From the NCBI RefSeq assembly GCF_009914755.1, contig NC_060930.1: 64,000 bases of DNA. One strand, given 5' to 3'. Position 1 is the first letter of the stretch; every line of letters starts with the position of its first letter. This stretch comes from the human T2T-CHM13v2.0 reference genome, Homo sapiens. Below are positions 58,501 through 59,391 of this stretch, in pieces. Position numbers and translations under genes: made by a program. The notes below the pieces were generated by a model. It was given only the letters and a program-made list of their open reading frames with translations, was not told the DNA's origin and ran no database searches.

Positions 58501-59391
58501 AACCTAGGCATTACCATTCAGGACATAGGCGTGGGCAAGGACTTCATGTCCAAAACACCAAAAGCAATGGCAACAAAAGACAAAATTGACAAATGGGATC
58601 TAATTAAACTAAAGAGCTTCTGCACAGCAAAAGAAACTACCATCAGAGTGAACAGGCAACCTACAACATGGGAGAAAATTTTTGCAACCTACTCATCTGA
58701 CAAAGGGCTAATATCCAGAATCTACAATGAACTCAAACAAATTTACAAGAAAAAAACAAACAACCCCATCAAAAAGTGGGCGAAGGACATGAACAGACAC
58801 TTCTCAAAAGAAGACATTTATGCAGCCAAAAAACACATGAAGAAATGCTCATCATCACTGGCCATCAGAGAAATGCAAATCAAAACCACAATGAGATATC
58901 ATCTCACACCAGTTAGAATGGCAATCATTAAAAAGTCAGGAAACAACAGGTGCTGGAGAGGATGCGGAGAAATAGGAACACTTTTACACTGTTGGTGGGA
59001 CTGTAAACTAGTTCAACCATTGTGGAAGTCAGTGTGGCGATTCCTCAGGGATCTAGAACTAGAAATACCATTTGACCCAGCCATCCCATTACTGGGTATG
59101 TACCCAAAGGACTATAAATCATGCTGCTATAAAGACACATGCACACGTATGTTTATTGCGGCACTATTCACAATAGCAAAGACTTGGAACCAACCCAAAT
59201 GTCCAACAATGATAGACTGGATTAAGAAAATGTGGCACATATACACCATGGAATACTATGCAGCCATAAAAAATGATGAGTTCATATCCTTTGTAGGGAC
59301 ATGGATGAAATTGGAAACCATCATTCTCAGTAAACTATCGCAAGAACAAAAAACCAAACACCGCATATTCTCACTCATAGGTGGGAATTGA
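55564..59391 (+). CDS. ORF2: LINE-1 ORF2p, APE-like endonuclease / reverse transcriptase (1275 aa)
   Basis: EN motifs QET, GDFN, KID, SDH; RT FADD with D702 (F700 codon at 57661); C-terminal [18 protein letters not shown] knuckle; no stops. Confidence 0.98.

What the first reader, a model, noticed from the sequence alone, without database searches (positions are those of the whole stretch)
59071..59202. Probable gene-conversion patch in the L1HS, copied from the inverted L1PA3 fragment 21 kb away
Seen in sequence: 59071-59202 is identical over 132 bp to the reverse complement of 38207-38338, with mismatches on both sides (59070 vs 38339; 59203 vs 38206). Both copies carry the non-consensus GGTATGTACCC (LLGMYP instead of LLGIYP; G59100 / C38309). 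The L1HS also has CCCAAAGGACTAT (G59109, C59112; YPKDY), the Ta-0/ancestral state. Recalled knowledge: elsewhere it carries Ta-1d alleles (GACGGTGATT G-deletion near 53650, T54282, T55390, ORF1 V168), and it has Ta ACA/G downstream; a Ta-1 element should read AAATGAGTAT (YPNEY). Inference: a short tract (13-132 bp) of the young element was overwritten using its inverted neighbour as template. Each element keeps its own 3'UTR and the L1HS TSD pair is intact, so this would be non-crossover conversion. It rewrites three ORF2p residues and would mis-classify the element by subfamily.
Basis: partly seen in the sequence, partly recalled or inferred. Interest (0 to 1): 0.85.

Follow-up and report, generated by a model that had tools for sequence, protein, structure and literature searches.

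The report
Old L1 fragment patched young L1
A young, intact human L1 retrotransposon carries a patch of three base changes within 13 bases, most likely copied from an old inverted L1 fragment 21 kb away; this kind of event is known, but here it makes the element look like an older subfamily.

Summary
Window 59071-59202 equals the reverse complement of 38207-38338 (132 bp). The run length itself is unremarkable: there are 2 mismatches in 318 bp, and the run ranks 24th of 76 comparable copies.

The signal is allelic. The full-length L1HS (53578-59620, both ORFs open, TSDs intact) sits inside a small Ta-1 clade. All 7 other members sampled read T5317 / ATA / T5536 / G5539. This copy reads A / ATG / G / C.

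All four states match the inverted L1PA3-like fragment. That includes ATG, which only 77 of 7,116 genomic copies with G5536/C5539 carry.

The best reading is a short non-crossover gene conversion from fragment to L1HS (confidence 0.68). The core tract is 13-132 bp. A5317 is either a second, discontinuous patch or an independent change.

Main caveats:
- One unlinked Ta-0-like copy on chr18 has the same ATG+GGAC and is identical over the last 633 bp.
- Direction and timing could not be checked, because no ape or pangenome data were available.
- The element has other old-L1-like "private" alleles that remain unexplained.

This is a new example of a known process; interest is moderate.

The parts
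53578..59620 (+). Full-length L1HS (Ta by its 3'UTR), including a poly(A) tail from about 59600
   Evidence: Self and cross blastn. ACA at 59503-05 and G59588. The 24 other full-length matches scored are 99-100% (rounded) identical, at 10714-10774 bits against 10899 for self.
53563..53577 (+). 5' target-site duplication AGAAGTATGATGACA
   Evidence: Read directly; identical to 59621-59635.
59621..59635 (+). 3' target-site duplication
54484..55500 (+). ORF1, 338 aa, open
   Evidence: Private residues Q90 and E171 relative to the comparison copies.
55564..59391 (+). ORF2, 1275 aa, open
59100..59112 (+). Minimal converted tract: G59100 (I1179M), G59109 (N1182K), C59112 (E1183D)
   Evidence: Differs from 19 of 20 best relatives and from the 7 other Ta-1 copies sharing A4664, at all three sites. 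Identical to the fragment.
59071..59202 (+). Maximal tract if the neighbour is the donor, bounded by the fragment-private bases at 38339 and 38206
   Evidence: None of the 75 other ATG copies has the fragment's base at either bounding site.
58890..58890 (+). Possible second patch: A at L1 position 5317 (synonymous, T1109). If templated by the fragment it is confined to 58853-58898.
   Evidence: T in chrX, chr5, chr18 and L108, and in 6 of 6 A4664+TGAG copies. A in the fragment and in 47 of 47 older copies aligned. The L1HS keeps its own bases at 58852, 58899, 58951, 58964, 58965 and 59070.
37781..38602 (-). 5'-truncated, inverted older L1 3' end (L1PA3-like; not typed with RepeatMasker). Proposed donor.
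   Evidence: 94.8% identical to the L1HS over 824 columns. GAG/A 3'UTR states. Its 39 best relatives genome-wide are 96-97% identical.
38207..38338 (-). Donor stretch identical to 59071-59202; carries C38309 (the ATG variant on the sense strand)
51506..52496 (+). Second, older L1 3' fragment just upstream of the L1HS; excluded as donor
   Evidence: 86.3% identity. Reads ATT and GGAT at the critical sites.

Best explanation
After the L1HS inserted here, a short stretch of its ORF2 was repaired or copied using the inverted L1PA3-like fragment 21 kb upstream as template. This is non-allelic, non-crossover gene conversion. The tract covers at least 59100-59112 and at most 59071-59202. It replaced the Ta-1 states (ATA, T5536, G5539) with the fragment's states (ATG, G, C). 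A at 58890 is either a second short patch from the same heteroduplex (patchy mismatch repair) or an independent change.

Shown: the allele pattern, its uniqueness within the element's clade, and the intact flanks. Inferred: the mechanism, the donor, the direction, and that the event happened at this locus.
For: 1. **The odd states are secondary.**
 - 19 of the 20 best full-length relatives fetched read ATA+T..G.
 - The element shares the derived states G4375/T4381/A4664 with chrX:11.52 Mb and 5 further copies, and C2230 with two of them.
 - All 7 other Ta-1 copies with A4664 read ATA+TGAG. All 7 read T5317.
2. **Everything odd in the overlap matches the neighbour.** Inside the 792 bp shared with the fragment, the element differs from its clade at exactly four sites (5317, 5527, 5536, 5539). 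At all four it has the fragment's base. A random substitution would match the fragment about 1.5% of the time.
3. **ATG is rare.** It occurs in 77 of 7,116 copies with GGAC (1.1%) and 2 of 272 with TGAG. A random older donor would carry it about 1% of the time, and the neighbour does carry it.
4. **No crossover.** Recipient-specific bases flank the patch on both sides (59070, 59203, 59286, ACA). The fragment shows no L1HS-specific base anywhere. The TSDs are intact.
5. **Direction.** The transfer brought ancestral GGAC into a Ta-1 body; the reverse direction would have put TGAG into the fragment. In addition, 4 of the fragment's 39 best relatives carry ATG, including the top hit, against about 1% background. 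This hints that ATG was already in the fragment's source lineage.
Against: - One unlinked full-length Ta copy (chr18:47.85 Mb) has the same ATG+GGAC and is identical to this L1HS from 58966 to 59598. No Ta-1-specific marker lies 3' of position 5539. A 3'-terminal replacement from such a lineage therefore cannot be excluded on sequence grounds.
- Only one donor-private site (ATG) ties the patch to this neighbour. The other sites are general older-L1 states.
- 58890 cannot belong to one continuous tract, because five recipient-type sites lie between it and the core patch.
- Before conversion, the longest perfect blocks between the two copies were about 104, 90 and 80 bp at 95% identity and 21 kb apart. 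A review passage reports elevated Alu conversion within 10 kb (PMC6598467, passage read), so these are modest conditions.
- A chr5 relative with the G deletion and ATA also reads GGAC. G/C at 5536/5539 in a Ta-1d-like body is therefore not unique.
- The element has further old-L1-like private alleles that the fragment cannot explain: A3637+A3639 and C4493.
- Of the 34 A4664 copies without TGAG, only 12 were typed for the 3'UTR triplet.
Confidence: 0.68

Rival explanations
1. The element was born with the patch. Its 3' end, somewhere after L1 position 5392, comes from a Ta-0 lineage that already carried ATG, like the chr18 copy. The route would be template switching during reverse transcription, or recombination or conversion at the source locus. 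The neighbour's ATG would then be a coincidence.
For: - The chr18 Ta-0-like copy shares ATG+GGAC and is identical over 58966-59598, although the two elements differ at 66 sites overall.
- A pre-Ta-like copy (L014) also has ATG.
- A pangenome preprint called 35 of 2,267 young full-length L1 loci recombinant (10.64898/2026.05.14.725010, Methods passage read).
Against: - The neighbour would have to carry ATG by chance, about 1.1% per copy.
- ATG recurs independently (2 of 272 Ta-1 copies), so one or two ATG copies among non-Ta-1 L1HS are expected by chance.
- The chr18 copy has T at 5317, so it does not explain A58890 either.
- Its ORF2 now shows two internal stops in my alignment-based translation.
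- No other copy in this assembly has clade markers plus ATG+GGAC.
Confidence: 0.12
2. The G/C states came from some other older L1 (ectopic conversion) or from stepwise change. ATG is an independent A>G mutation in the L1HS. The match to the neighbour is chance.
For: - A>G at this site recurs: 77 GGAC copies, 2 TGAG copies and 3 TGAC copies.
- The element has other alleles resembling older L1s that the fragment cannot have supplied.
- 7,039 potential ATA+GGAC donors exist.
Against: - It needs two independent low-probability events: about 0.7% for ATG on a Ta-1 copy and about 1.1% for the neighbour.
- It also needs those events to fall 9-12 bp from the reverted sites.
Confidence: 0.08
3. The direction is reversed for ATG. 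The L1HS carried ATG+GGAC on arrival and later converted the fragment at that one site.
For: Within 38207-38338, ATG is the only site that could record such a transfer. A short L1HS-to-fragment tract would therefore leave no other trace.
Against: - It needs both a rare pre-existing haplotype in the L1HS and a local conversion.
- 4 of the fragment's 39 closest relatives, including the best one, already carry ATG.
Confidence: 0.04
4. The patch is an assembly or polishing artefact from reads of the fragment mapped onto the L1HS.
For: None from my calls. It is listed because it could not be tested.
Against: - The patch is flanked within tens of bases by L1HS-specific states, and the element is otherwise a coherent Ta-1 copy.
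- From general knowledge, not tested here: long reads span a 6-kb element into unique flanks.
Confidence: 0.03

Closest known systems
Non-allelic (interlocus) non-crossover gene conversion between dispersed repeats (Alu, L1, duplicated genes)
   Same: - A short patch of donor alleles inside a recipient that keeps its own flanks.
- The donor is unchanged.
- The partners lie on the same chromosome.
- The review PMC6598467 (passages read) describes the same pattern for Alu and notes dependence on distance and identity. L1 cases (Myers 2002, Vincent 2003, Tremblay 2000) are recalled only and were not read here.
   Different: - Old-to-young direction: a dead, truncated fragment writes into an intact full-length L1HS. 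From recall, the L1 cases usually reported are old elements converted toward young Ta sequence.
- The distance is 21 kb, the orientation is inverted, and the tract is very short.
- The tract may be discontinuous.
Ta-0 / Ta-1 typing of L1HS by positions 5535/5538 (5536/5539 in my numbering)
   Same: By the rule printed in PMC12350158 (Methods passage read: ACA = Ta; G,C = Ta-0; T,G = Ta-1), this element types as Ta-0.
   Different: The rest of the element carries Ta-1/Ta-1d-type states: the G deletion, T at 709 and 1817, and A at 4899. Its nearest relatives are Ta-1. The label would therefore be wrong for its ancestry.
Recombinant young L1 loci flagged in the HPRC pangenome preprint (10.64898/2026.05.14.725010)
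   Same: A mosaic of lineage markers within one full-length young L1. The preprint also notes Ta0-labelled elements inside the Ta1d-rich branch (passages read).
   Different: Those calls rest on 3SEQ/BOOTSCAN breakpoints between donor groups, which are large segments. A 13-132-bp patch would probably escape that screen.
Chimeric L1 insertions formed by template switching during reverse transcription (recalled, not read here)
   Same: This could give a Ta-1 body with a different 3' end.
   Different: It predicts one junction and a donor lineage elsewhere. It does not predict a match to a private variant of the physical neighbour.

Membership tests
L1HS Ta | ACA at 5929-5931 of the 3'UTR (PMC12350158 Methods) and G at about 6015 (the latter recalled) | tested here: met
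   ACA at 59503-59505 and G59588. The fragment has GAG and A.
L1HS Ta-1 | T and G at 5535/5538 (PMC12350158 Methods) | tested here: not met
   G59109 and C59112.
L1HS Ta-1/Ta-1d by ancestry | Body markers and nearest relatives: the G deletion near position 74-76, T709, T1817 and A4899. The positions match markers named in 10.64898/2026.05.14.725010 after an offset of 87; the 'd' deletion itself is recalled. | tested here: met
   - These states are shared with the chrX and chr5 relatives and absent from the chr18 Ta-0-like copy and three older copies.
- 19 of the 20 best relatives are Ta-1 at 5536/5539.
L1HS Ta-0 | G and C at 5535/5538 together with a Ta-0 body | tested here: not met
   The G/C states are present. 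The body, however, differs from the Ta-0-like chr18 copy at about 38 sites where this element is derived.
Non-crossover interlocus gene conversion | Donor-type alleles in the recipient, bounded on both sides by recipient-type alleles | tested here: met
   Donor-type at 59100, 59109 and 59112. Recipient-type at 59070 and 58965 on the 5' side, and at 59203 and 59286 on the 3' side.
Non-crossover interlocus gene conversion | The recipient's closest relatives lack the patch | tested here: met
   All 7 other Ta-1 copies with A4664 and 19 of 20 best relatives read ATA+TGAG. Caveat: 22 of the 34 non-TGAG A4664 copies were not typed further.
Non-crossover interlocus gene conversion | A marker private to the proposed donor is transferred | tested here: inconclusive
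   Only ATG qualifies. It is rare (1.1%) but not unique: 75 other copies carry it, including one Ta copy.
Non-crossover interlocus gene conversion | No rearrangement: the flanks and the donor are unchanged | tested here: met
   The TSD pair is intact. There are no L1HS-specific bases in the fragment.
Non-crossover interlocus gene conversion | The pre-conversion allele is seen in other haplotypes, and the donor variant predates the recipient (outgroup orthologue) | not testable with these tools
Inherited recombinant L1 lineage | Other copies share the same marker combination | tested here: not met
   None of the 75 other ATG+GGAC copies is Ta-1-like. Among the 40 places scored for 58881-59120, no place other than the window's own has fewer than about 2 mismatches. 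This scan was not exhaustive: 2,044 candidates, 40 scored.

The most novel reading that the evidence does not exclude
Old, dead L1 fragments within about 100 kb may act as a template reservoir that repeatedly writes short patches into a still-intact L1HS. On this reading the element carries several patches: 5527-5539 and 5317 from the fragment at -21 kb, A3637+A3639 from an inverted L1 at -94 kb, and perhaps C4493. If so, an appreciable share of the 'private mutations' used to date and classify young L1s would be templated rather than new.
Probability: 0.15. Interest if true: 0.6.

Novelty: new member of a known kind. Interest (0 to 1): 0.4.

Why it matters
- **Subfamily typing.** Typing L1HS from two 3' bases (5535/5538) would label this Ta-1-derived, intact element as Ta-0. 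Short conversions can therefore corrupt subfamily labels, age estimates and source-progeny inference for exactly the elements that matter most.
- **Protein change.** An inactive fragment can change the coding sequence of an element whose reading frames are still open. Here that means I1179M, which is new, plus N1182K and E1183D, which return to the ancestral residues. The effect on ORF2p is untested.
- **Scope.** As a single locus it adds an example to a known process; it does not open a new one.

Tried and rejected
- **Linking 5536/5539 to the ACA triplet with one gapped pattern.** I fetched the copies instead.
- **The 132-bp run as statistical evidence.** Rejected: it ranks 24th of 76, and the flanking runs are 104 and 80 bp.
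- **One continuous tract from 58890 to 59112.** Rejected for the neighbour, because five recipient-type sites lie in between. Rejected for every other ATG copy too, because each has at least one mismatch in that span.
- **The older L1 at 51506-52496 as donor.** Rejected: it reads ATT/GGAT.
- **Segmental duplication linking the fragment to other ATG loci.** No flank homology beyond one unrelated repeat.
- **The chr18 copy as sibling or progeny.** Rejected: Ta-0-like, with 66 mismatches.
- **A4664 as a clean clade marker.** It is noisy: 34 of the 40 other hits are not TGAG, and most look older.
- **Shared rare variants between the fragment and other ATG copies.** None found.
- **Sources that were unavailable.**
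 - Earlier findings were not open.
 - Myers 2002 (PMC379164) is not held.
I therefore read short stretches only.
- **Searches for this locus in print.**
 - The terms LAMA2 / L1HS / full-length / intronic gave one paper. It mentions only that an L1HS near LAMA2 is shared by many cell lines.
 - Three searches on L1 gene conversion gave no description of this patch.

Full report
**1. Observation**

Window 59071-59202 is identical, 132 of 132, to the reverse complement of 38207-38338. The flanking mismatches are 59070/38339 and 59203/38206.

The two partners are:
- A full-length L1HS at 53578-59620. It has a 15-bp TSD on both sides. ORF1 (338 aa) and ORF2 (1275 aa) are open.
- An inverted, 5'-truncated older L1 3' end at 37781-38602. 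It is 94.8% identical to the L1HS over 824 columns.

With ACA at 59503-59505, the offset is window = L1 position + 53573. So 59109 and 59112 are positions 5536 and 5539, which PMC12350158 numbers 5535 and 5538 (Methods passage).

The run length is not itself unusual:
- In 58966-59283 the two copies differ at only two sites, giving runs of 104, 132 and 80 bp.
- Among 76 genomic copies carrying the same 18-mer, the neighbour's exact run around it ranks 24th.

**2. How rare the haplotype is**

Exact counts in the window's own assembly:

| State at 5527 + 5536/5539 | Copies |
|---|---|
| ATG + GGAC | 77 (2 are in this window) |
| ATA + GGAC | 7,039 |
| ATA + TGAG | 270 |
| ATG + TGAG | 2 |
| ATG + TGAC | 3 |

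ATG therefore occurs in about 1.1% of older-type copies and 0.7% of Ta-1 copies. It is a recurrent change.

Their types:
- 73 are older types.
- 1 is pre-Ta-like (ACG/G, L014).
- 1 is Ta (ACA/G, chr18).

At the two bounding sites:
- None of the 75 has the fragment's C at the 59070 site (A in 73, a gap in 1, T in 1).
- All 75 have C at the 59203 site.

Those two bases are therefore private to the fragment, and they bound a fragment-templated tract at 132 bp.

**3. The chr18 copy**

- It is full length and 98.8% identical to the window's L1HS, with 66 mismatches and 5 gaps.
- It lacks the G deletion near position 74-76.
- It is ancestral at about 38 sites where the window's element is derived, and it has about 30 changes of its own. 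It is Ta-0-like, not a sibling.
- Even so, the two are identical from 58966 to 59598. This keeps a rival explanation alive.

**4. Where the window's element belongs**

- A whole-element DNA search scored 25 of 16,672 candidates. The 24 others are 99-100% (rounded) identical.
- I read positions 5527-5539 in the top 20 of those 24. Nineteen read ATA+T..G, and one (chr5) reads ATA+GGAC.
- Full alignment with the chrX and chr5 relatives, the chr18 copy and three older copies shows:
  - Shared with chrX and chr5: the G deletion, T709, T1817, A4899 and C5392.
  - Shared with chrX only: C2230, T3864, T4381, A4664 and T4894.
- The A4664 34-mer has 42 copies. Of the 40 others:
  - 6 read ATA+TGAG. All 6 have G4375, 5 have T4381, all 6 have T5317, and 5 have C5392. 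One of the 4 that reach position 2230 has C there.
Only one is Ta (L108), and it has the Ta-0-like C4375/C4381.
  - 22 were left untyped. Most carry extra substitutions or indels, or show no L1 at the expected offset.

So the window's element is nested in a small Ta-1 clade. The 7 other members sampled all read T5317/ATA/TGAG.

**5. The pattern in the overlap**

- Against chr5 and chrX together, the element has 15 private sites in the 5.2 kb outside the overlap with the fragment, and 2 inside (5317 and 5527). It also differs at 5536 and 5539 from chrX and the clade.
- All four inside sites carry the fragment's base.
- Three of the four are general older-L1 states. ATG is the only one that points to this particular fragment.
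- The fragment shows no L1HS-specific base, the TSDs are intact, and each copy keeps its own 3'UTR. Any exchange was therefore unidirectional and without crossover.
- 58890 cannot lie in the same continuous tract. The L1HS keeps its own bases at 58899, 58951, 58964, 58965 and 59070.
- No other ATG copy offers a continuous match either.

**6. Weighing the readings**

- If the neighbour is the donor, nothing else needs to be rare. One or two ATG copies among non-Ta-1 L1HS are expected from the recurrence rate.
- If the patch was inherited or came from elsewhere, the neighbour's ATG is a coincidence of about 1%.
- If ATG arose on its own in the L1HS, a further factor of about 0.7% applies.
- Direction: the transfer put ancestral G/C into a Ta-1 body. 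Also, 4 of the fragment's 39 best relatives carry ATG, including the best one (binomial P about 8e-4 at a 1.1% background; 0.01 to 0.05 under stricter assumptions). No other shared rare variant backs a lineage.
- I put fragment-to-L1HS conversion at about 0.68.

**7. What stays open**

- The chr5 relative shows that G/C at 5536/5539 in a body with the G deletion is not unique. The pangenome preprint likewise places the two hallmark changes on "one early branch" of its Ta1d-rich tree, and it of 2,267 loci recombinant (passages read).
- The private pair A3637+A3639 has 89 genomic copies.
  - The listed chr1-3 copies I checked against the TGAG list do not coincide with it, so the pair looks like an older-type haplotype.
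  - One copy lies 94 kb upstream in inverted orientation. It is 100% identical to the L1HS over 91 bp, as are 34 other places.
  - The expected number of such copies within 100 kb on either side is 0.006.
- C4493 is carried by 6 of 30 older copies.
- These may be further patches, or they may be chance and CpG decay.
- No ape, pangenome or read-level data could be consulted.

**8. Consequences and verdict**

- The patch changes ORF2p at I1179M, N1182K and E1183D. 58890 is synonymous.
- Under the printed typing rule the element would be called Ta-0.
- Gene conversion among dispersed repeats is well known (PMC6598467, passages read; the L1-specific papers are recalled only).
- This is a well-documented new instance with a practical warning for L1 typing. 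It is not a new kind of event.

Noticed in passing
L076+L066 (G000:C18:47851257-47857300): A full-length Ta-0-like L1HS carries the same ATG+GGAC and is identical to the window's L1HS over its last 633 bp, although it is 1.2% diverged overall. My alignment-based translation shows two internal stops in its ORF2.
   Followed up: partly
L097 (G000:C5:138200230-138206266, minus strand): A 99.6%-similar relative has the G deletion, T709, T1817 and A4899 but reads ATA+GGAC. It is a second element whose 5536/5539 typing disagrees with its body. It lacks the clade markers C2230, T4381 and A4664.
   Followed up: partly
window 57210-57212; G000:C6:130101176-130101266 (outside the window, 94 kb upstream, minus strand): The L1HS-private pair A3637+A3639 is an older-L1 haplotype with 89 genomic copies. 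One copy lies 94 kb upstream in inverted orientation and is 100% identical over 91 bp. This may be a second templated patch.
   Followed up: partly
window 58066 (L1 4493) and 58126 (L1 4553): Two more 'private' alleles of the L1HS coincide with states seen in older copies. C4493 occurs in 6 of 30 (all L1PA2-like). T4553 occurs in 7 of 30 (a CpG site).
   Followed up: partly
L032 (G000:C6:130412685, plus strand), 215 kb downstream of the L1HS: A third ATG-bearing L1 lies on the same chromosome arm within 236 kb. About 0.012 such copies are expected within 250 kb either side of the fragment.
   Followed up: no
window 38590-38610; L032, L034, L036: Four ATG-bearing older L1 copies, including the fragment, are 5'-truncated within about 25 bp of one another but have unrelated flanks.
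   Followed up: partly
L115, L119; one search places on C1, C4 and C13: Copies with T5536 but C5539, a half-way state, exist. Two are among the A4664 hits (one with ACG in the 3'UTR). Three more carry ATG+TGAC.
   Followed up: no
window 54484-55500: ORF1 of the L1HS has two private residues, Q90 and E171, where all comparison copies read L (V in one older copy) and G (R in one older copy). The frame stays open.
   Followed up: no
window 51506-52496: An older L1 3' fragment, 86% identical and in direct orientation, ends about 1.1 kb upstream of the L1HS 5' end.
   Followed up: partly
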